A stretch of DNA of 64,000 nucleotides from a virus: IMG/VR virus record IMGVR_UViG_3300033150_001234, positions 1 to 64,000 of that record; one strand, 5' to 3'. Below the pieces are notes generated by a model. It saw only the letters and a list, made by a program, of their open reading frames with translations. It was not told the DNA's origin and made no database searches. The translations under genes and the position numbers were made by a program. Positions 3-29,529 of this stretch are shown here, piece after piece (position 1 is the stretch's first letter; each line of letters begins with the position of its first letter).

Positions 3-1235
3 AAACACCCTAATGCTGATAGATTATCAATAGTCACTATCAAGGGATGGCATTGCATCGTAGGCTTGAACGACTATGTCGTGGGAGATGCGATAATCTT
101 TATACCTCCTGATAGTATTATGCCTTCAAATTTAATAGACGAGTATAATTTAGAATATTTGAAATCGAAAAGTCATAGGTCTCAAGGAAGGGTAAGAACG
201 GTAAAATTAAGAGGATGTATAAGTCAAGGATTAGTAATGCCATTATCTATTTTAAATAAAGGAAAACCTTGTAGATTAAAATTAGGAGGAATAGTAAGTA
301 ACATGAGTGATAAAGTAGTATATCCAAAATTCGGTTATGGTACTAATGTAGCTGAACTTTTAGGTATAACAAAATATGAACCCAGGGAACCAAGTTTTCA
401 AATGTTTAAACCTAAAATAACTGTAGGTAAGTTATTTAAGATGTTAGTAAAAAAAGAAATAACACTAAGAAGATTTATATTTAAAACAATAGGAATTATA
501 AAAGATTCTTTTAGAAAGAAAAAGAATATAAACCCTAATTTTAATCAATATACACATATCGAAAACATAAAACATTATAACACTGTTTTTGAGTTGGGAG
601 ATGTAGTTGACATAAGTGAAAAGATTCACGGTACAAATTTTAGGGCAGGTGTATTGAGAAAAGAATATAAAATACCAATGTGTTTTAAAAAGATATGCCA
701 AAAATGGTTTGGAGAATATGAATTTGTATATGGCAGTCATAAGGTTCAGATAACAGGTCATAGAGGTAGAAATTGTTTTTACGGAGAAGATGTATACGGT
801 CAGATAGCAAAAAGATATCAATTGAAGGACATCATACTCGAAGGGTATATAATATATGGAGAGATATATGGTAAGGGAATACAAAAGGGATACAACTACG
901 GATTACCAAGCGAATTAAGAGAATATGATATTGATGTAGTTTTCTTTGACCTTAAGAAAGATGGAGAATACGTATCTCACTATGAGTTTTATGAATTTTG
1001 TAGGGATAGAAAACTACCAACAGTACCAATACTATATCAGGGAATGTATCCCGGATTAGATAAAGTAAAAGAAATGACTAAAGGTAACTCAGTATTATGT
1101 GAAGAACAAAAGATGAGAGAGGGCGTTGTAGTAAAAAGCTACGTAGAAGAAAATAACCATAACTGCGGTAGGAAGATATTGAAAGCAATAAGCGAAGATT
1201 ATTTACTAATAAAAGACAATACAGAATTTCATTAA
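3..1235 (+). CDS. RNA ligase, DRB0094/Rnl5-like (5'-truncated by window edge)
   Basis: Frame is open from nt 3 (KHPNADRL...GW, typical N-terminal OB domain), then RVRTVKLRG-SQGL; nucleotidyltransferase motifs EKIHGTN, YGEIYG, FFDL, REGVVVK, ILKAISEDYLL. Confidence 0.9.
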   Translation, partial: KHPNADRLSIVTIKGWHCIVGLNDYVVGDAIIFIPPDSIMPSNLIDEYNLEYLKSKSHRSQGRVRTVKLRGCISQGLVMPLSILNKGKPCRLKLGGIVSNMSDKVVYPKFGYGTNVAELLGITKYEPREPSFQMFKPKITVGKLFKMLVKKEITLRRFIFKTIGIIKDSFRKKKNINPNFNQYTHIENIKHYNTVFELGDVVDISEKIHGTNFRAGVLRKEYKIPMCFKKICQKWFGEYEFVYGSHKVQITGHRGRNCFYGEDVYGQIAKRYQLKDIILEGYIIYGEIYGKGIQKGYNYGLPSELREYDIDVVFFDLKKDGEYVSHYEFYEFCRDRKLPTVPILYQGMYPGLDKVKEMTKGNSVLCEEQKMREGVVVKSYVEENNHNCGRKILKAISEDYLLIKDNTEFH

Positions 1236-2709: not shown

Positions 2710-2786
2710 GGGAGCGCATGTACCAAGGGTGGCGAGATTGCTTTGCAAGCAAACTGAGGTGGGTTCGATTCCCACCGTTTCCACCA
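2710..2786 (+). tRNA. tRNA-Ala(TGC), encoded CCA
   Basis: Acceptor GGGAGCG/CGTTTCC with G3:U70 alanine determinant, discriminator A plus CCA, anticodon loop TT-TGC-AA, T arm GTGGG-TTCGATT-CCCAC; atypical D arm. Confidence 0.88.
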
Positions 2787-4507: not shown

Positions 4508-4624
4508 ATGATGAAAACTAATATAATCATACTATTAATATTAAACTTTAGAAAAGGCATTAATATAATCATAGGCCAAACCGGTAGCGGTAAAGAGGAA
4601 TTATTAATTGCGTGGGAAAAATAA
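4508..4624 (+). pseudogene. 38-codon remnant of an SbcC/Rad50-like ABC ATPase N-terminus
   Basis: My translation: MMKTNIIILLILNFRKGINIIIGQTGSGKEELLIAWEK*; Walker A in SMC-type context then stop. Confidence 0.5.
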
Positions 4625-4625
4625 A

Positions 4626-5180
4626 ATGAATATATGGTTCACAGCAGATTTACATTTTGGGCACGGTAATATTATTAAATACTGTAATAGACCCTTTAGT
4701 AGTTTAGAAGAAATGCATATGTTGTTAATACGTAATTGGAATAGCAGAGTAAAGAAAGAAGATTTAGTAATACATAATGGAGATTTCTGTTTTAAGAATA
4801 CGCCAGGTGGAAAAATAGGTGAAGGATTACAAGTACCTGCAGCATATTGGGAAAAACAACTTAATGGTAAAATTATATTCATACAGGGTAATCACGATAA
4901 AAATAATTCATGTAAGACGCCAATACAAAACATAAAAGTGGCGATGGGGGGTAAAAGAATATTTATAACACACAATCCTGAACATGTGGGTATAGTAACG
5001 GGATGTGATTTAGCATTTACGGGACATGTACATAATAATTGGAAAATTAAAAGGGCAAAAAGAATGTTTGATTTTATTGACTGTATCAATATAGGTGTAG
5101 ATGTTTGGAAGTTCAGACCAGTTAGTTTTAATGAGATAATGGGTAGGTACAATAAATGGAAGAAATTAACGAACCGTTAA
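4626..5180 (+). CDS. Calcineurin-like metallophosphoesterase
   Basis: WFTADLHFGH, NGDF, GNHD, THNP, GHVH, INIGVD motifs; ATG at 4626 preferred over 4608. Confidence 0.92.
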   Translation: MNIWFTADLHFGHGNIIKYCNRPFSSLEEMHMLLIRNWNSRVKKEDLVIHNGDFCFKNTPGGKIGEGLQVPAAYWEKQLNGKIIFIQGNHDKNNSCKTPIQNIKVAMGGKRIFITHNPEHVGIVTGCDLAFTGHVHNNWKIKRAKRMFDFIDCINIGVDVWKFRPVSFNEIMGRYNKWKKLTNR

Positions 5181-5353: not shown

Positions 5354-5554
5354 ATGGCAGATGCAGTTAGACGCGGTGGTAAGAAAGGTAGAAAAATTGG
5401 TAGAAATGCTGCTAAGTGTAAAAAATATAGTACTGAAAAAAGACGTATAAAGAATAAAAGAAGAAAATTAACCAAGAGAATAAAAAATATAAAGCCTGAA
5501 ACACAGGAAAAAATATTGAGGGTTAATAAAATAGGTAGGAGGAAAGAAGGTTAA
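5354..5554 (+). CDS. Very basic small protein
   Basis: Strong AGGAGGT RBS; K/R-rich; preceded by TTGAAA-16-TATAAT at 5295-5322. Confidence 0.75.
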   Translation: MADAVRRGGKKGRKIGRNAAKCKKYSTEKRRIKNKRRKLTKRIKNIKPETQEKILRVNKIGRRKEG

Positions 5555-6066
5555 TGGGACCAATAGAAAAAAGAGCTTTAGAAATATTAAATAGTTTAGA
5601 TGGTTTTTTAGATATTCCAGCATCTATAAGTGGAAAATATCATTATGGGGAAAACATGGAAGACCATTTAATTAAGGTAGTAAAAATTATTAAAGATTTA
5701 TGTAGGGAATTTAAAGTAAGTGAAGAAGATACTGATATGTTATCAGCTGTAGGTTGGTTACATGATATAGGTAGATATATTATAACTGCTAAAGGTGATG
5801 TGAGTAAAAAAGCAAGTAACTGGACTTATTTTGAAAAGACAGGTTACAGTAGACAGAATGATATGATGGAAAAACACCCCATAATAGGAAGTAGAATGTT
5901 GTTAGAAAGTGATAAAAATATTCCCAGAAAAAAGGAAATTCAAAGATTAATAGAAATACATATGAGTCATTGGTATCCAGAACAACCTCAACCCGATTTA
6001 ACTAATTTATTTGAAATAATAATTTGTACGTCTGATTATTTAGCTTCGAGGAAAAAGTATGATTAA
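5554..6066 (+). CDS. HD-domain phosphohydrolase
   Basis: H...LHDIG...HP..G...HMSHW...SDYLAS. Confidence 0.85.
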   Translation: MGPIEKRALEILNSLDGFLDIPASISGKYHYGENMEDHLIKVVKIIKDLCREFKVSEEDTDMLSAVGWLHDIGRYIITAKGDVSKKASNWTYFEKTGYSRQNDMMEKHPIIGSRMLLESDKNIPRKKEIQRLIEIHMSHWYPEQPQPDLTNLFEIIICTSDYLASRKKYD

Positions 6067-6433
6067 CTACTATATAGGTCAAAGGTTTAAATTTAAAACA
6101 ATAATATGGGATGATAAGATATCAAAAAATAATTGTAGAATAACAAGAAAAGCTATGCGAAAAGCAGCAAAACAATTTAGTGGCACTATACCACTAACAA
6201 TTGATTTTAGAGTAGATAAAAAAAATCCAGTCATAGGACATATAGATAAGATTACGTATGAAGACGGTGTACTAATAGCGGATGTAAATGTCGGCGTTAA
6301 GGAATTAGAAGAGTGGTTTAGAAGTAGTGTTTTTAGACCCGCCATGCTAGTAAGAAAATATGGTAAGTCGAGAGAGATAACCGTCATCGAGGAGGGTGAA
6401 ATTACCCAGATAGGAATGATACTAAAAAAATGA
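6059..6433 (+). CDS. Hypothetical protein, weak prohead-protease-like fold
   Basis: IPLTIDF...VIGHIDKITYEDGVLIADV pattern. Confidence 0.35.
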   Translation: MINYYIGQRFKFKTIIWDDKISKNNCRITRKAMRKAAKQFSGTIPLTIDFRVDKKNPVIGHIDKITYEDGVLIADVNVGVKELEEWFRSSVFRPAMLVRKYGKSREITVIEEGEITQIGMILKK

Positions 6434-7029
6434 TAGAATTAATAATACTAGTAGGAAATATAGGTAGTGGAAAATCAACTACTGTTAAAAAATTAGTTAA
6501 AGAAGGCTATATTGTAATTTCCAGAGATGCTTTTAGATATATGATAGGAGCAGGCGAATATATATTCAATCCAAAACTCGAACCAATAATTCATAACATG
6601 AATATCGATTGTCTTATTAGATGTTTGCAAGTAGGTTTAGACGTAGTAGTAGATGAAACAAATGTATCAAGAGGAATGAGAAAAAGATATCTTGAATTAG
6701 GTAATGATTATGGATATATAACAACTGCATTAGTAATGCCAAGATTAAGTATGAAAGAAGCAGTTGATAGAAGAATGAATGACCCTCACGGTCAACCTGA
6801 TAGGAAAATGTGGGAAGGTGTTTGGAAAAAATTTGAAAGTAAATATTGTGAACCCACCATTGAAGAAGGATTCAATAAAGTTATCAAGTCAGGATACCAT
6901 AATATATGTAGTTTATATCCAACACCAGATGAGGAGACTTGTGTATGTGGTGGGGGCTCAGATATAAGTGGTGGAGAACCATGCACTAAAGAAGATGAGC
7001 GTAACTGCCCATGGGCGAAGATACCTTGA
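6430..7029 (+). CDS. Polynucleotide kinase-like P-loop kinase (AAA_33) with Cys-rich tail
   Basis: LIILVGNIGSGKST, SRDAFR, VVVDETN, AVDRR lid. Confidence 0.85.
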   Translation: MIELIILVGNIGSGKSTTVKKLVKEGYIVISRDAFRYMIGAGEYIFNPKLEPIIHNMNIDCLIRCLQVGLDVVVDETNVSRGMRKRYLELGNDYGYITTALVMPRLSMKEAVDRRMNDPHGQPDRKMWEGVWKKFESKYCEPTIEEGFNKVIKSGYHNICSLYPTPDEETCVCGGGSDISGGEPCTKEDERNCPWAKIP

Positions 7030-7242
7030 TATTTACAAACTAGAGGAGATAGATAATGAAACTATCAAAAGGCGAATATAAAATAAATATATCGAGTGTA
7101 ATTGCATTCCCAATTGGTATAATTGCCTTAATACATACGTCAGGTACAAATTTATTTTGGGTAATCCTTTTAATTATATTATACCATAGTAAATTTTACT
7201 TTAAGTGGGAGGAGCATAAGTCATAGGTTAATTATCGTTCCT

Positions 7243-9423: not shown

Positions 9424-9616
9424 TGGAAACAGAGAAATGTATAGTGTGTTTAAAAAAGGCAGAGGTATATACTGGACATCTTATTGAGTATGTAGGGCAG
9501 GTTTTTGTAAAGAGCATATTGGTACGCCTTGCCCGAATAGTTACGGTAGCGGTGGTTGCTTTGGGTTATATAAACCTGAATTTGGTATACAGGTAGAGTT
9601 TGAAGATAGAATTTAG
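9423..9616 (+). pseudogene. Frameshifted small Cys/His protein
   Basis: METEKCIVCLKKAEVYTGH continues plausibly in the -1 frame at ~9495 as AGFCKEH...GCFGLYKPEFG...RI*. Confidence 0.45.
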
Positions 9617-9877
9617 GTAAGTAATAAATTAAGATAAGAAAGGAGATACATAATGGATTTGATTCAAGGTCGAGCAGTAGTAGTTAATACACCAACAATG
9701 AATATCGTAGGATGTATTGTCGGTAAAGCTACAACTGACTTAACTCAAACATATATTGTAAAATGTCTTGACGATCAATTACCTAATTTAATTTACCCAT
9801 ACGATACTATGGTTGCACCAAGGGCTATTATTACAGTAAGGTGAGCCATTAGATGTAATTGCAAAAATGAATTTAGT

Positions 9878-9906
9878 TTGACTTTTTTGAAAAAGTAGTA
9901 TATAAT
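9878..9906 (+). promoter_or_regulatory. sigma70-like promoter
   Basis: TTGACT-17 nt-TATAAT followed by AGGAGG RBS. Confidence 0.8.
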
Positions 9907-9929
9907 TAAATAAAGGAGGGTGAGAAAAG

Positions 9930-10727
9930 ATGGTAGAAGAAATTAAAAACAATTGGGATTTTCCAGTAGAATTAAAGGAGTTAAAAGTAAACAGTGCATC
10001 AAACGGTAAGATTGTTAGAACACACAATGCTGTTGTAGATGCAGAAACTCAAGAAGTTTTAGGCGTTGTGAGAAAGAATTATAATTTGATTCAAACACGC
10101 GATATCAATAATGCAATAATTGAATCAAACTCCGGATTGCAATTGACAGATGCGCATCTTGTGAGAAATAGAGGTTTAATTGTGATGGATTACAAGCTAG
10201 ACGAACAACATGATGTTGAAATAAAGGGAATCGAGCCAAATGACAGGATAAATTTCGGGATTAGGATTTATAACCCATTTGATTATCGATTCGGGAGTCA
10301 AAGAGGAAGCGCTTTTGCAAATAGATTGGTTTGTACAAATGGGATGACGATTCCGAAAGCCGTAGGAAGATTTAATCTAAAGGACCTGGCGGGATTTGAC
10401 TCGGCGGCAATCCGCAATGCAGTTGTGGGAAGATTGAAACCAATAACAGATACCGCAAAAGTATGGAATAAATGGGCACAGACAACGCCCACAGTTGATA
10501 AAGTAAATCAGTTCATAGGTGACAACGTTCATAGTAAGAAGGTTCGGGAGGCATTATCAAGCGAATATGTAAAGGGTAAAGATAAGTCGGTTTGGGGGTT
10601 ATATAACTTAATTACGTATTATATAACCCATCAGGCAACAACCCGAAATATTGATATGCTCACTGTGAAGCAGGAATATTTGCATGCAACGATTGGAAAT
10701 CTATATGATGTTGAACATTGGAATTAA
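9930..10727 (+). CDS. DUF932/DUF945-family protein
   Basis: VLGVV...Y.LIQ, IYNPFD, RLVCTNGM, SVWGLYNLITYYITH. Confidence 0.85.
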   Translation: MVEEIKNNWDFPVELKELKVNSASNGKIVRTHNAVVDAETQEVLGVVRKNYNLIQTRDINNAIIESNSGLQLTDAHLVRNRGLIVMDYKLDEQHDVEIKGIEPNDRINFGIRIYNPFDYRFGSQRGSAFANRLVCTNGMTIPKAVGRFNLKDLAGFDSAAIRNAVVGRLKPITDTAKVWNKWAQTTPTVDKVNQFIGDNVHSKKVREALSSEYVKGKDKSVWGLYNLITYYITHQATTRNIDMLTVKQEYLHATIGNLYDVEHWN

Positions 10728-10731
10728 AAAT

Positions 10732-10810
10732 AATATCGTAGTTTAATGGTAAAATAACTCAAAGGGTTTACCCAGCTGAGAAGATATGAGTTCGAATCTC
10801 ATCGATATTT
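10732..10810 (+). ncRNA. tRNA-like element with aberrant, elongated anticodon arm
   Basis: Acceptor AATATCG/CGATATT, T8A9, D arm GTTT-AATGGTA-AAAT, T arm ATGAG-TTCGAAT-CTCAT; 15-nt loop in place of the 7-nt anticodon loop; no encoded CCA. Confidence 0.8.
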
Positions 10811-11420
10811 CTATATTATTTATATTGAGGACATAGAGAGGATTAAGATGAATAAAATAATAGAACAAGATGTAATTTTAAGGTCAAACGTAGACATGTC
10901 AGGCTGCTTAACTAAGGGAAGGTTATATAGGGGAAGAACTGAAAAAAATATAGTTGATATTCAATTTATATTTGTAAATGATATAGGTAATTTACGTAGT
11001 TGGCCTATTTCTCATTTTGAAAGGAAATAATAATGGGTAAAGGATTTGCATGTGGTAGTTGCGAACATTTAATTCAAGGAAAAGAACCTTTACCTAAATG
11101 GTGGTATTGTAAAAAATATGAAGTATTTTTAAATACCCAGCCAAGAATGTATTTAGAAACAGCTACAAGAATTAATGAGTGTGTACAAGGAGAAAGTGGT
11201 ATATAATATATTAAAAGAAAGGTACTAAAATGTCTAAAAATTTAACAATTAAAGAAGCAAAAGAAAAAGGATATGAAATAGATGAAATATGTTATCCGCA
11301 TGTAGGATATAAGGGACCAAGATTTAACCCTATTGAAATAGTAGAAGTATATACTAAATTAGAAACAGAGTTAAAAGACGCTTTAATTGAACTAGGGGCG
11401 AATCATTAAGGATTTTAAGT

Positions 11421-12404
11421 ATGATAAAAGAACAAATAATTCTTAAAACAATATTTGGTAGTCATTTATACGGTACGGATACTCCTGAATCAGATAAGGA
11501 TTACAAGGTAATTTACGTGCCAAGTAAACGGGATATCCTTTTAAATAAAAATTTATATACTTCTAAACATGAACAAACCAAGGTAGGTGAAGGAAAAAAT
11601 ACAAAAGATGATACTGATATAGAATACATACCATTACATCAATTTATTAAATTAGCTTGTCAGGGTGATACAATGGCATTAGATTTATTACATGTACCAG
11701 AAAGTATAATATTAGAAAAGAATTATATTTGGGATGAAATTCAAAAAAGAAGACAAACATTTTATACAAAAAATTTAAAAGCATTTGTAGGTTATGCAAG
11801 AAAACAAGCCTCTAAATATGGTATAAAAGGAAGTAGATTGGATACCTGTAAAAAGGTAATGGATATATTAAAATCAGAATCCGAGGAAACACGTGTTAGA
11901 CAGGTATTCGATAACATACCTGAATGGGAACATACTCATAAGTTAGTTAATAAAAATGGAATAAGGGAATTAAAAGTATGCGGTAAAACAATACAAGAAA
12001 CACAATCATGTGAATATGCATATGATATTATAAGAAGATATTATTGCGAATATGGTACAAGGGCAAAAGATGCTTCGGAAAATAAAAATATTGATTGGAA
12101 AGCAGTAAGTCATGCAATAAGAGCAGCATATGAAGTCTTAAGTATATATAATAATAATGAGATAGTATTTCCATTAGAACAAGCTGAATTTTTAAAGAAT
12201 GTGAAATTAGGTAAGTTAAATTATTTAATAAAAGTAGCACCAAAGTTAGAATCATTAATGGAAGAGATTGAAGAAAAATCTAAAACAGTAGATTTACCAG
12301 AAGAAGTAAATAAAGAATGGTGGGAGTATTGGTTAATGGAAACAGTTGAAAAATATTATTGGTGTGAAGAATATAACCCAGGAATAAGTATTAGCCAAAT
12401 ATGA
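11421..12404 (+). CDS. Pol-beta-fold nucleotidyltransferase (RlaP/YcgL/T4 NrdC.11-like)
   Basis: FGSHLYGTDTPESDKDYK, FVGYA..QA.KYG, DWKAVSHAIR. Confidence 0.88.
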   Translation: MIKEQIILKTIFGSHLYGTDTPESDKDYKVIYVPSKRDILLNKNLYTSKHEQTKVGEGKNTKDDTDIEYIPLHQFIKLACQGDTMALDLLHVPESIILEKNYIWDEIQKRRQTFYTKNLKAFVGYARKQASKYGIKGSRLDTCKKVMDILKSESEETRVRQVFDNIPEWEHTHKLVNKNGIRELKVCGKTIQETQSCEYAYDIIRRYYCEYGTRAKDASENKNIDWKAVSHAIRAAYEVLSIYNNNEIVFPLEQAEFLKNVKLGKLNYLIKVAPKLESLMEEIEEKSKTVDLPEEVNKEWWEYWLMETVEKYYWCEEYNPGISISQI

Positions 12405-12522: not shown

Positions 12523-13047
12523 ATGAAATTAATTTATACAATAGAAAATACAAGAGAAATATTTATGCTAGTTGAAAGATTGTCAGGAATAGAACAATCA
12601 GAAAAGTGGCATCCGGAAGGAGATGCATTTCAACATACATTGCAGGTAGTAAACTGGGCATTTAAAGAAAGTGATGATATTGATTTAATATTAGCAGCAT
12701 TATTACATGATGTAGGTAAATTTAAGGGAACGTTAGGACATGATTTATATAGTGCCGAGATGATTGACAATTACGTTTCCCGGAAAACCTATTGGTTAGT
12801 AAAAAATCATATGAGAGTTCTTTGGTATATAGATGGTAAAATGAAAAGAAAGTTTAAGATAAGGGGATTAGTAGACCAACCATGGTTTCCATCAGCCGTT
12901 GAATTATATAGATGGGATAGGTTAGGTAGGGATTCACATATAATATTAGATTATGAAAAGTTAGTAATAATTTCTAAATTAAATAAGGCAGCAGAAAGAC
13001 ATTTTAAAAAGGGTTATGATTATGTGGGAGAAAATAAAACTAAGTGA
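12523..13047 (+). CDS. HD-domain protein (type seen in CCA-adding/RNA end-healing enzymes)
   Basis: Q..KWHPEGDAFQHT, AALLHDVGK, GH...SA, LVKNHM. Confidence 0.85.
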   Translation: MKLIYTIENTREIFMLVERLSGIEQSEKWHPEGDAFQHTLQVVNWAFKESDDIDLILAALLHDVGKFKGTLGHDLYSAEMIDNYVSRKTYWLVKNHMRVLWYIDGKMKRKFKIRGLVDQPWFPSAVELYRWDRLGRDSHIILDYEKLVIISKLNKAAERHFKKGYDYVGENKTK

Positions 13048-26831: not shown

Positions 26832-29529
26832 TGGGTGAAAGAATTAAATGTGATAAATGTAAAAAAGAATTTAATGAAAAAGATTGGAAAGGAAAAATAC
26901 ATGAAATAATTGATGAATTTGATACTGAGTATCGTTTTGATATTTGTTACGAATGCGAACAAACTTTAACAGCAGATTTTTTAAAAACAGCAGCTTCATT
27001 TTTTACATTATCAAATAACATAACAGTTTGGAGAGTAGTTCAATAATAATCGATTTAAAGGGAGGGTTAAGAGAATGGCAGAAGAAGTAAAAAAAAGTAT
27101 GGGAGAAGATGCAGCACTTAAGGCAGCACAACTCAAGGCAAGAATGAAACTTATTATAAAACGAAGGAAACATTATAAAATATTAAAGTTTTTCAACGTT
27201 ATACCCTTAATGCATGATTGTCAAGTAGCTATAAAGTTATTAGGTGCCCCTGTAAGTATAAGCACACAGTTATATACAGCATGTCCTATATGCAAAAAAA
27301 CATTTACAGTTGAGCCCCCGAAAAAGCAAGTACAGCAAGGTCCTCAGCCGACAAATGCAACGGCACCAATCAGAAAGAAAGCTGCAAAAAGAAGTTAACC
27401 TTTAGTATATAATAAATATATTAAAGAGTATTAAGTTGAGGGGAATATTGTAATGTTCCAAATAAAAATTATACGTGATGATAGATGTAAAAATCATTTT
27501 TGTCAGGATTCTAAACACCCTTCTATTTATAGGTGTAGTGAATCGCTATTTATAAAATTTCAGCGTAGTCCATTGATTTTGACAGATGATAAACTTAAAA
27601 AACACCCTAATCACTTTTGGTTAGATATCAATAAACAAGGGATAATAGGATGATTGAGGGTAGGGAATTTAAAAGTGGAAAAAAAGAAAAACGTAGTAGA
27701 AGAGATTAAAAAAATAATTTGCGGTGATTGTAAGGCAATAGTAACTGAATGTAAATTATGTTTAAAAAATAGACAAGTTATATGTTTAAATAATTTGTTT
27801 TACAATATTTTAAAAGGTGAACGCCAAAGAATTCAAGTAAATATTGAGGGTCTTAATGTTGAGAAAGTACTTGAAGATATGTATAAAAATAAGGGGAGTG
27901 CAGATTTACTTAAGAACATTTTAATTTGGATTGTTAATGGAAAACCTATTTTAAAGGGCACTCAAAATGAAAAAAGTATTAAGGATAAAAAAGAAACTGG
28001 ATGAAGTAGTAACTAATTTTAATAATCAAATAACAATATTGGAAGCCACTAATGATTGTAAAATACATCACTTTTCCTATTTAGACATTATAATCAAAGA
28101 TATGAAGCAACATATTTTTTATTCAAAGAAGGGCAAATCATTATGATATGGCAAATAAAAAAACTCAATAGTTATACAGTTTCTAATACAATTTGGAGTA
28201 CACTCTAAAATGTGTAAACCCATTGAGTTATCAGAATTATTAGAACTTAGAGAAATATCTTTAAAATTAAGAGAATATGCTGCAAGATTAGTTGAGTTTG
28301 AAGATAAGCACATATTTGCAAAAGCAATGAGAGAAAGTCTTGATGAATGCATAACAGAATTAGATAAGGTGCACCATGCACTCGATATAGATATTTATAG
28401 AATAGAAAAGAGTGAATAATATATGAGCAGAGTTACAGTTATGAAAGACGTATTACAAAATCTATATATCCTGTGGAAAAGTCATCCTAAGTTGAGATTG
28501 GGTCAAGTTATAACTGTGCTCAATGCTGATTTAAAAAAAGAATTGTATGATATTTCCGATAAGGAGTTTTTAGTACAGATTAAACGGGAGTTGCAAAAGT
28601 GTTAAAAACTAAATTTAAATGTCCTAAATGCGGTCAGAAAGTAGTTATCGAGGGTACGACTAAGCAAATGTGCCCTTATTGCGGTTATATTAAGAAAGAA
28701 AGACCTGATAAAACCGTAAGGAGAACCTGGAATATAAATCCATTTGAGAAAATACTTCAAAAGAAATCTAAAGAATTACCTGAGCAAGAAGACATCGAGG
28801 AGAGGCTTGATTAATTATGAAATATGTCGGACATATTAATATAGGGAATAATCAGGCAGGTAAGGGAGACGGTTATCGCCCAAAATCAAAATGTCCTAAT
28901 GAAAAACTCTTCTTTACATTAAAGCAAGTTAAGGAATTTGAGAGTAAGCATAAAGGGATGCATTGTTATTTGTGTAAAAGAAGAATTCACATTTCAAGAA
29001 CCTTTTTACTATACGGAAAAAAGCTCGTAGTTTGCGACAAATGTGAAAAAGGGGTGTATATGTAATGAGAATGTCCTATTGCGATTTATGTGGTGCACCC
29101 GTACGCGATACAAGGTATTTCATGTTGATAGTAAAAGGAACAAGTGATGATAGTTACGCTATACCCAAAATAAATAACTTATATGATGTAGACAGAAAAG
29201 AAATTTGTGGAAATTGTAAAAAGATTTTAGATAGGTTGTTCGTAGGTAAATTACAGGCTTTAAAGGATATTAATAAGGAAATTGAAAGACTTTTTAGGTT
29301 ATCTAGTTAGGGAGAACATACTATGAAAAAAAAGAAGAAAAAGGAAGTAAGATATGTCAGATATCCAAAAGAAGCTTATCGCAACACAATAAAATTGAGA
29401 TGCTATATCTGTAAAGAAGTATCTCATATAACTGTAAATCACGATTGGGAAAAAACATATACTGAAGAAGTCATTAAACGCTGGACTTGCTGGAAATGTC
29501 GCCCGAGGAAAAGTGGAAAGATATATTAG
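26831..29529 (+). CDS. Run of about 11 small ORFs, most with CxxC pairs
   Basis: e.g. CDKC/CYEC, CPIC, CGDC/CKLC, CPKC/CPYC, CYLC/CDKC, CDLC/CGNC, CYIC/CWKC. Confidence 0.65.

What the first reader, a model, noticed from the sequence alone, without database searches (positions are those of the whole stretch)
10732..10813. tRNA mimic with intact elbow but a hairpin replacing the anticodon loop
Seen: perfect 7-bp acceptor stem, canonical D-loop GG and TTCGAAT T-loop, but the anticodon arm is CTCA-aa-GGG(TTTA)CCC-agc-TGAG, with no U33/7-nt loop, and the 3' end is T-CTA. An alternative pairing GGTAAA/TTTACC would display ACTCAAA. Intact stems with a structured insert argue against random decay. 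Inference: decoy for anticodon nucleases or tRNA-sensing defences, a Y-RNA-like mimic, or a substrate for the nearby ligase, kinase, HD and nucleotidyltransferase enzymes.
Basis: partly seen in the sequence, partly recalled or inferred. Interest (0 to 1): 0.7.

Follow-up and report, generated by a model that had tools for sequence, protein, structure and literature searches.

The report
Phage tRNA look-alike with sealed anticodon
A 91-kb phage carries a gene with a complete tRNA body whose codon-reading loop is replaced by a small closed hairpin, so it cannot decode; it is either a purpose-built tRNA mimic or a freshly broken tRNA, and no relatives were found to settle which.

Summary
Window 10732-10810 (+) scores 50.9 bits against Rfam tRNA (cut-off 29). 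It has a perfect 7-bp acceptor stem, a canonical D arm and T arm, a 4-nt variable loop and discriminator U, and no encoded CCA. The anticodon "loop" is 15 nt instead of 7 and folds as CUCA/UGAG, an internal loop, GGG/CCC and a UUUA tetraloop. There is no U33, and ARAGORN at default settings finds nothing. No deletion of 8 contiguous bases restores a canonical loop, and there is no bulge-helix-bulge motif, so the RNA cannot decode.

The gene sits 4 nt behind a DUF932 gene. It lies downstream of a strong promoter-like site, in the early region of a complete DTR phage that also carries an RNA heal-and-seal kit.

No homologue was found in IMG/VR, JGI metagenomes or GTDB genomes. The two closest relatives that cover the locus lack it but keep the repair genes. 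Selection therefore cannot be shown for this copy.

Other phages carry the same body design with enlarged or sealed anticodon arms. One such family shows compensatory changes in the sealed arm. Unchecked earlier notes of this scan describe similar mimics on other DNA.

My reading: a selected non-decoding tRNA mimic 0.40, a recently inactivated tRNA 0.33, and the remainder split among smaller rivals.

The parts
10732..10810 (+). tRNA-shaped gene, from acceptor position 1 to discriminator U; no encoded CCA (10811-10813 is CTA)
   Evidence: Rfam RF00005 50.9 bits against cut-off 29, model 1-71. ARAGORN at default settings gives no call.
10732..10738 (+). Acceptor stem, 5' strand; pairs 7/7 with 10803-10809
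   Evidence: Sequence; cmscan alignment
10741..10755 (+). D arm: 4-bp stem (G-U plus three A-U pairs) and a 7-nt loop with G18 G19
   Evidence: The same 18-nt D arm occurs in ordinary phage tRNA-Trp genes L009-L011.
10757..10781 (+). Enlarged anticodon arm: A.A mismatch, CUCA/UGAG (4 bp), 15 nt in place of the 7-nt loop
   Evidence: cmscan shows 15 nt where the model has 7. The MFE fold pairs CUCA/UGAG and GGG/CCC.
10764..10773 (+). Mini-hairpin GGG-UUUA-CCC that seals the loop
   Evidence: Fold. An all-GC 3-bp hairpin is expected in 0.3% of 15-mers of this genome.
10786..10802 (+). T arm: 5-bp stem and canonical UUCGAAU loop
9878..9906 (+). Promoter-like site (11 of 12 consensus matches) upstream of the DUF932 gene and the tRNA-like gene; no terminator-like site between 9400 and 11500
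   Evidence: consensus scan only
9930..10727 (+). DUF932 gene ending 4 nt before the tRNA-like gene. Both lie in a 1.4-kb segment (about 9424-10846) that relative L008 lacks.
   Evidence: Pfam PF06067 6.9e-13; indel shown

Best explanation
The gene makes a tRNA-shaped RNA that cannot decode and is kept as a mimic.

Shown: a complete tRNA upper body and elbow, and an anticodon arm closed by a GC mini-hairpin, with no 7-nt loop and no U33.

Inferred from what is known of RNase P, RNase Z and the CCA-adding enzyme, which recognise the acceptor/T-arm half and the elbow: the RNA is co-transcribed with the DUF932 gene from the early promoter-like site at 9878-9906. It is then cut out of the transcript and given a CCA end like any tRNA, yielding a stable RNA of about 80 nt.

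Inferred: it is not aminoacylated. It lacks the identity marks of the synthetases that ignore the anticodon (no G3:U70, no long variable arm, U73).

Most likely role (inference, not tested): an off-ribosome competitor for a host or phage protein that recognises tRNA by shape. The phage plainly expects attacks on tRNA, since it encodes a ligase, kinase-like protein, phosphoesterases, RlaP and HD proteins.
For: - The body is fully intact: 7/7, 4/4 and 5/5 stem pairs, all elbow nucleotides present, 50.9 bits. A long-dead gene would have drifted.
- The defect is one compact GC hairpin, expected in 0.3% of 15-mers here, and the loop is 53% GC in a 31% GC genome.
- The gene is tightly packed in an early operon, 4 nt after a stop codon and 35 nt before the next start.
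- The same body design recurs with enlarged or sealed anticodon arms in other phages:
  - L032/L040 has the same layout of 4 bp, internal loop, 3 bp and tetraloop.
  - L051/L085/L097 have a variable loop and T arm up to 21/21 identical to ours, with U73.
  - A seven-contig family has a 4-bp, tetraloop-capped anticodon arm with 3 compensatory pairs and 100% pairing.
- A relative, G008, carries a 115-nt tRNA-like gene with an insert at the same place.
- The RNA repair kit is in the same early region. RlaP biochemistry on damaged tRNA is described in bioRxiv 10.64898/2025.12.29.696909.
Against: - It is a singleton. No copy of this arm or close body was found in IMG/VR, JGI metagenomes or GTDB genomes.
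- The nearest relatives lack it, so there is no conservation or covariation for this element.
- The comparators were fetched with patterns taken from this element, so their body similarity is partly built in.
- The anticodon stem has only 4 pairs beside an A.A mismatch, and the overall fold is no more stable than shuffles.
- A snap-back or palindromic insertion would create a hairpin without any selection.
- No protein partner was identified.
Confidence: 0.4

Rival explanations
1. A recently inactivated ordinary tRNA gene. An 8-nt insertion or rearrangement in the anticodon loop killed a decoder of the common AT-rich phage body type (Trp-like D arm), and the rest has not yet decayed. Any processing is a leftover.
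For: - No homologue with this arm exists anywhere searched.
- The whole 1.4-kb segment is dispensable in relative L008, and the DUF932 homologue in L005 has no tRNA behind it.
- The D arm is identical to that of normal phage tRNA-Trp genes.
- The anticodon stem is weakened by an A.A mismatch, and the fold z-score is -0.31.
Against: - All other stems and conserved nucleotides are intact.
- Compact phage genomes lose dead DNA quickly, so the time window for seeing a fresh wreck is short.
- A GC-only hairpin is unlikely by chance (0.3%).
- Sealed arms on this body type are conserved elsewhere.
Confidence: 0.33
2. An mRNA punctuation element. The tRNA shape serves only as an RNase P/RNase Z cutting site that separates the DUF932 message from the downstream small-ORF, RlaP and HD message. 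The excised RNA itself has no role.
For: It lies 4 nt after the DUF932 stop codon and 35 nt before the next start. No terminator-like site lies between 9400 and 11500, and a promoter-like site lies upstream. Only the upper body, which is what these nucleases need, is canonical (enzyme specificity from established knowledge).
Against: It does not explain the GC hairpin. L008 joins the same neighbouring genes without any such element.
Confidence: 0.1
3. A tRNA-scaffolded antisense RNA. Nucleotides 10754-10771, which include the 5' side of the odd loop, pair with codons 2-7 of ORF 28210-28419 and damp its translation.
For: There is 17/18 complementarity to + strand 28214-28231, starting 4 nt after the ATG at 28210. 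Only about 2% of shuffled sequences reach this anywhere in the genome.
Against: - The match was found after the fact, among many comparisons.
- By duplex energy the site is not unique: -33.4 kcal/mol against -36.1 and -33.3 elsewhere.
- Pairing needs the D and anticodon stems to unfold.
- The target ORF has no known family, and no relatives are available to test co-variation.
Confidence: 0.07
4. A pre-tRNA with a small intervening sequence that is removed (or a loop that is remodelled) to give a working decoder, for example Trp(CCA) or Gly(CCC). The phage ligase and kinase would reseal it.
For: - With introns allowed, ARAGORN proposes Gly(CCC) with a 6-nt intron.
- Other contigs on this body type carry inserts exactly at 37/38 that leave a canonical loop (L021 Phe, L051 UAU).
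- A nested tRNA-Lys case exists.
- The phage has ligase and end-healing genes.
Against: - No removal of contiguous bases yields U33 plus a purine at 37 (sequence).
- There is no bulge-helix-bulge motif.
- The insert position in the ARAGORN model is 31/32, with A33 and a mismatched stem.
- No bacterial or phage enzyme is known to excise such an insert.
Confidence: 0.05

Closest known systems
Ordinary phage-encoded tRNA (Rfam RF00005), AT-rich body type as in tRNA-Trp of L009-L011
   Same: Cloverleaf body, an identical 18-nt D arm, a canonical T loop, a similar variable loop, and placement between early genes.
   Different: A 15-nt sealed loop instead of a 7-nt anticodon loop, no U33, U73 instead of G73, and not called by ARAGORN.
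Bacillus cereus tRNA-Other, a pseudo-tRNA acting outside translation (PMC3399842)
   Same: A tRNA-derived RNA that does not serve in translation but has a cellular role, as described in that paper.
   Different: tRNA-Other keeps a Trp anticodon, which it uses on a T-box. The phage RNA has no anticodon at all, is phage-borne, and has no shown role.
Bacterial Y RNA (YrlA) with Ro60/Rsr (PMC4201824)
   Same: A non-coding RNA that mimics the tRNA elbow and acceptor/T region and is linked to RNA repair and quality control.
   Different: In YrlA the RNA ends form the Ro-binding stem and the tRNA-like part is internal. Here the ends form a normal acceptor stem. The genome has no TROVE gene, and there is no Rfam hit other than tRNA.
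Phage T4 small stable RNAs, species 1 and 2 (rnaC, rnaD); from my own knowledge, not tested here
   Same: Phage-encoded, tRNA-processing-dependent stable RNAs of unknown function that are not decoders.
   Different: The T4 RNAs are longer and sit in a tRNA cluster. No sequence or structure comparison was run here.
Uncatalogued phage tRNA look-alikes with closed anticodon arms, seen here (L032/L040; inner element of L071-type loci) and in unchecked earlier notes of this scan
   Same: A tRNA body with the same variable loop and T arm, and an anticodon arm ending in a short helix capped by a tetraloop.
   Different: Those have family members, and one has covariation. This element has none. The arms differ in sequence and length, and common descent is not shown.

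Membership tests
Canonical tRNA (RF00005) | Cloverleaf scoring above the Rfam gathering cut-off | tested here: met
   50.9 bits against 29, model 1-71
Canonical tRNA (RF00005) | 7-nt anticodon loop with U33 and a purine at 37 | tested here: not met
   15 nt between CUCA and UGAG. No register gives U33.
Canonical tRNA (RF00005) | Called by a standard tRNA finder at default settings | tested here: not met
   ARAGORN finds 0 genes in the window. It reports one only with introns allowed or a lowered threshold.
Intron-bearing pre-tRNA (archaeal/eukaryal type) | Bulge-helix-bulge motif, or an insert at 37/38 that leaves a canonical loop | tested here: not met
   The arm is a helix, a 2x3 internal loop, a 3-bp helix and a tetraloop. 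There are no staggered 3-nt bulges, and the forced ARAGORN intron sits at 31/32.
Intron-bearing pre-tRNA (archaeal/eukaryal type) | A splicing endonuclease available in the phage or host | not tested
   The host is unknown and no search was run for it. The phage looks bacterial: Shine-Dalgarno-like sites and sigma-70-like promoter matches.
Y RNA / YrlA | Ro60 (TROVE) partner gene | tested here: not met
   No PF05731 match in the complete 91-kb genome
Y RNA / YrlA | RNA ends form a long Ro-binding stem, with the tRNA-like module internal | tested here: not met
   The ends form a 7-bp acceptor stem. No Y-RNA family hit.
tmRNA | tRNA-like domain plus tag reading frame and pseudoknots | tested here: not met
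   No tmRNA call by ARAGORN or Rfam at this locus
Selected phage tRNA mimic with sealed anticodon arm (uncatalogued) | tRNA body with an anticodon arm closed by a short capped helix | tested here: met
Selected phage tRNA mimic with sealed anticodon arm (uncatalogued) | Conservation or covariation of the sealed arm among relatives | tested here: inconclusive
   No relatives carrying the element were found.
Selected phage tRNA mimic with sealed anticodon arm (uncatalogued) | A stable processed transcript | not testable with these tools
   No transcript data are available

The most novel reading that the evidence does not exclude
The element is one member of a broad, undescribed class of phage RNAs. 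These use a tRNA body as a self-processing, stable scaffold and replace the anticodon with a closed or custom arm. They would act off the ribosome in the phage-host conflict over tRNA, for example by occupying host enzymes or defence proteins that recognise tRNA by its elbow and acceptor end.
Probability: 0.3. Interest if true: 0.75.

Novelty: new variant of a known kind. Interest (0 to 1): 0.42.

Why it matters
Phage tRNAs have recently been shown to rescue infection from tRNA-cutting defences (for example eLife 2023, PMC10264068; Nature 2024, PMC11464382). A tRNA look-alike that cannot decode would be a different tactic: mimicry rather than replacement.

If such RNAs are processed and stable, they point to host or phage proteins that read tRNA shape. 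They would also offer a natural counterpart of the engineered "tRNA scaffold".

This single copy cannot carry that claim alone. It has no relatives, so its value is as one more example of a design that recurs on other phage DNA.

Tried and rejected
- **Stop-codon suppressor or alternative code:** rejected. Long ORFs read through under table 11, and there is no 7-nt loop.
- **Repeated motif or promoter inside the insert (as in relative G008):** rejected. No word of the arm recurs significantly in the genome.
- **Local duplication (10-mer and 9-mer shared with ORF 9653-9844):** chance level in a genome-wide word search.
- **Extended antisense duplex with ORF 28210:** by duplex energy it is not unique. 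A first attempt timed out.
- **Integration site (attP):** not supported. A whole tRNA is present rather than a 3' half, I noticed no integrase among the neighbouring genes I annotated, and the genome has DTR ends.
- **DUF932 as a partner:**
  - Its homologues in L005 and L003/L004 have no tRNA-like gene behind them.
  - A single-sequence AlphaFold model was useless (pLDDT 35).
  - There was no PDB sequence match.
  - The papers searched gave no function.
- **Homology searches that found nothing:**
  - blastn against 50,697 phage records.
  - A protein word search for DUF932 returned only itself.
  - Relatives found through TerL carry 0-1 ordinary tRNA.

Full report
**What is there.** The window is the first 64 kb of a complete 91,306-bp virus record with direct terminal repeats. 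It has about 31% G+C and all genes are on the + strand.

At 10732-10810 the Rfam tRNA model scores 50.9 bits (cut-off 29) over its whole length. It is the only gathering-level RNA hit in the window. The structure read from the sequence and the cmscan alignment is:
- A 7/7 acceptor stem (10732-10738 with 10803-10809), then U8 and A9.
- A D arm with a 4-bp stem and a GG-bearing loop (10741-10755).
- An anticodon arm (10757-10781).
- A 4-nt variable loop.
- A T arm with a canonical loop (10786-10802).
- Discriminator U (10810), followed by CTA rather than CCA.

The anticodon arm is abnormal. It has only four Watson-Crick pairs (CUCA/UGAG) beside an A.A mismatch. It has 15 nt where a tRNA has 7. 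These fold as AA, GGG-UUUA-CCC, AGC.

ARAGORN at default settings finds no tRNA in the window. With introns allowed it forces a Gly(CCC) model with a 6-nt insert at 31/32, A33 and a mismatched stem. With a lowered threshold it forces a different, also non-canonical model. No removal of contiguous bases gives U33 with a purine at 37, and there is no bulge-helix-bulge motif.

**Is it more than chance?** The tRNA body certainly is (E about 1e-10 locally). The hairpin is less clear:
- A 3-bp all-GC hairpin occurs in 0.3% of 15-mers at this genome's composition.
- The arm's energy (-6.5 kcal/mol) is reached by 6.6% of random genomic loops.
- The whole molecule folds no better than shuffles (z = -0.31), as is common for AT-rich tRNAs.

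**Surroundings.** The gene lies 4 nt after the stop codon of a DUF932 gene (9930-10727) and 35 nt before the next small ORF. A promoter-like site matching 11 of 12 consensus positions lies at 9878-9906. No terminator-like site lies between 9400 and 11500.

The early region holds an RNA heal-and-seal kit:

| Coordinates | Product |
|---|---|
| 66-1235 | RNA ligase |
| 4608-5180 | metallophosphoesterase |
| 5554-6066 | HD protein |
| 6430-7029 | polynucleotide-kinase-like P-loop protein |
| 11421-12404 | RlaP nucleotidyltransferase |
| 12523-13047 | HD protein resembling the HD part of tRNA nucleotidyltransferases |

RlaP enzymes add one or two nucleotides to damaged RNA 3' ends and help restore repaired tRNA (bioRxiv 10.64898/2025.12.29.696909; PMC7824862). 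The genome has no TROVE/Ro60 gene and no class II CCA-enzyme head domain.

A second tRNA-shaped gene at 2710-2786 is a divergent but plausible tRNA-Ala(UGC). It has G3:U70, A73, an encoded CCA and a normal 7-nt loop. The phage can therefore carry a normal decoder.

**Relatives.** The phage has no close cultured relative. Nine related IMG/VR contigs were found through RlaP and TerL.
- L008 (RlaP 75% identical) joins the HNH gene directly to the small ORF that follows our element. The 1.4-kb segment carrying DUF932 and the tRNA-like gene is absent.
- L005 (RlaP 67% identical) has a DUF932 homologue followed by a plain long hairpin.
- Both keep RlaP and HD, so the element is not an obligatory partner of those enzymes.
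- More distant relatives carry no tRNA, or one ordinary tRNA-Met(CAU) just upstream of an RNA ligase gene.
- One relative, G008, has a 115-nt tRNA-like gene (58 bits) with an insert of about 43 nt at the same place.

Pattern scans found no other copy. They were built on the D arm, T loop and the odd arm and were run over IMG/VR, JGI metagenomes and GTDB genomes. For this copy there is therefore no conservation or covariation evidence either way.

**The same design elsewhere.** The scans did return other tRNA-like genes on the same body type with enlarged or closed anticodon arms.
- L032/L040 lies in a phage replication module and has the same layout of 4 bp, internal loop, 3 bp and tetraloop.
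- L051 (Clostridium phage D-1873), L085 and L097 carry a tRNA(UAU)-like gene with an insert of about 19 nt after position 37. Their variable loop and T arm are up to 21/21 identical to ours and they share U73.
- L021 is a tRNA-Phe-like gene with a 10-nt GNRA hairpin after position 37.
- A seven-contig family has a 4-bp, tetraloop-capped anticodon arm. It shows three compensatory pair changes and 100% pairing.

One hit with such an insert (L044 = L055) is simply an archaeal tRNA-Trp intron.

These comparators were fetched with words from our element, so their body similarity is partly built in. They show that the design recurs and can be under selection. They do not show that our copy is.

Earlier notes of this scan describe similar sealed-anticodon mimics on other phage DNA. 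I did not check those. In the papers I could search I found phage tRNAs as replacements for cleaved host tRNAs, pseudo-tRNAs such as B. cereus tRNA-Other, and Y RNAs. I found no description of this design.

**Mechanism.** Shown: a tRNA upper body and elbow, and no decoding loop.

Inferred from the known specificity of RNase P, RNase Z and CCA-adding enzyme for the acceptor/T half: excision from the early transcript and CCA addition, giving a stable RNA of about 80 nt.

Inferred: no aminoacylation. The marks used by anticodon-independent synthetases are absent.

My best reading (0.40) is a selected mimic acting off the ribosome on a protein that reads tRNA shape. A strict anticodon-nuclease decoy is unlikely because the loop those enzymes read is missing.

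Rivals:
- A freshly inactivated tRNA (0.33).
- A mere RNase P/Z punctuation site (0.10).
- A tRNA-scaffolded antisense RNA (0.07). This rests on 17/18 complementarity of 10754-10771 to codons 2-7 of ORF 28210-28419. About 2% of shuffles reach that level, and the site is not unique by duplex energy.
- A spliced decoder (0.05).

**Verdict.** It is unsupported in function. The element is a new variant of a known kind (tRNA-derived non-decoding RNA). Its interest is moderate because this copy stands alone.

Noticed in passing
window 2710-2786 (+): A second tRNA-shaped gene. ARAGORN at a lowered threshold calls it tRNA-Ala(UGC). It has G3:U70, A73, an encoded CCA, a normal 7-nt loop, a weak D stem and 56% GC. 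Rfam tRNA scores only 23.6 bits, and its 3' part also resembles the tmRNA 3' end.
   Followed up: partly
L071 about 713-856 (-); also L077, L083, L089, L091, L068 9602-9745 (+), L094: Nested tRNA. An outer tRNA is interrupted inside its anticodon loop by a complete 64-65-nt mini tRNA-like gene plus a 3-nt tail (CCA, CAA or CCG). Removing the insert leaves CUUUUAA, a perfect tRNA-Lys(UUU) loop. The inner sealed anticodon arm shows 3 compensatory pairs between variants. ARAGORN calls neither part. The loci are in large phage contigs (100-214 kb). This may be a tRNA-shaped intervening sequence cut out by tRNA-processing enzymes; that is untested.
   Followed up: partly
L051 1848-1937 (-) = Clostridium phage D-1873 ACSJ01000017.1 31906-32020; L085 5765-5855 (-); L097 1514-1604 (+): An unannotated tRNA(UAU)-like gene with an insert of about 19 nt after position 37. 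The insert extends the anticodon stem and contains a stretch resembling the 16S rRNA anti-Shine-Dalgarno tail. It sits next to a normal tRNA-Trp and is conserved in three records.
   Followed up: partly
L067 2485-2599 (-) (record G008, a relative with RlaP 49% identical): A 115-nt tRNA-like gene (58 bits) with an insert of about 43 nt in the anticodon loop. A 14-nt motif (GTTCCTATAAAAAT) occurs exactly three times in that record: just upstream, inside the insert and just downstream.
   Followed up: partly
L007 3091-3179 (= L039), L042, L029, L015: A family of phage tRNA(UAU) genes with a long, covarying variable arm (conserved loop CUAGAUUGG). This is unusual for an isoleucine-type anticodon. 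In L007 it lies about 820 nt upstream of the RlaP gene.
   Followed up: no
window 28214-28231 (+), in ORF 28210-28419: Codons 2-7 of a 69-aa ORF of unknown family are 17/18 complementary to 10754-10771 of the tRNA-like RNA. About 2% of shuffles reach this level.
   Followed up: partly
window 9424-10846: A 1.4-kb cassette (small ORFs, the DUF932 gene with its own promoter-like site, and the tRNA-like gene) is present here. It is absent from relative L008, where the HNH gene abuts the next small ORF.
   Followed up: yes
L050 about 6909-7040 (genome about 88.9 kb, outside the window): A roughly 120-nt RNA candidate downstream of a TATAAT box, with long paired ends around a branched core. It has no Rfam hit at E up to 0.5.
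   Followed up: partly
L066 1501-1575 (record G003, a distant relative): An ordinary tRNA-Met(CAU) lies 3 nt after a trypsin-like protease gene and just upstream of an RNA ligase gene.
   Followed up: no
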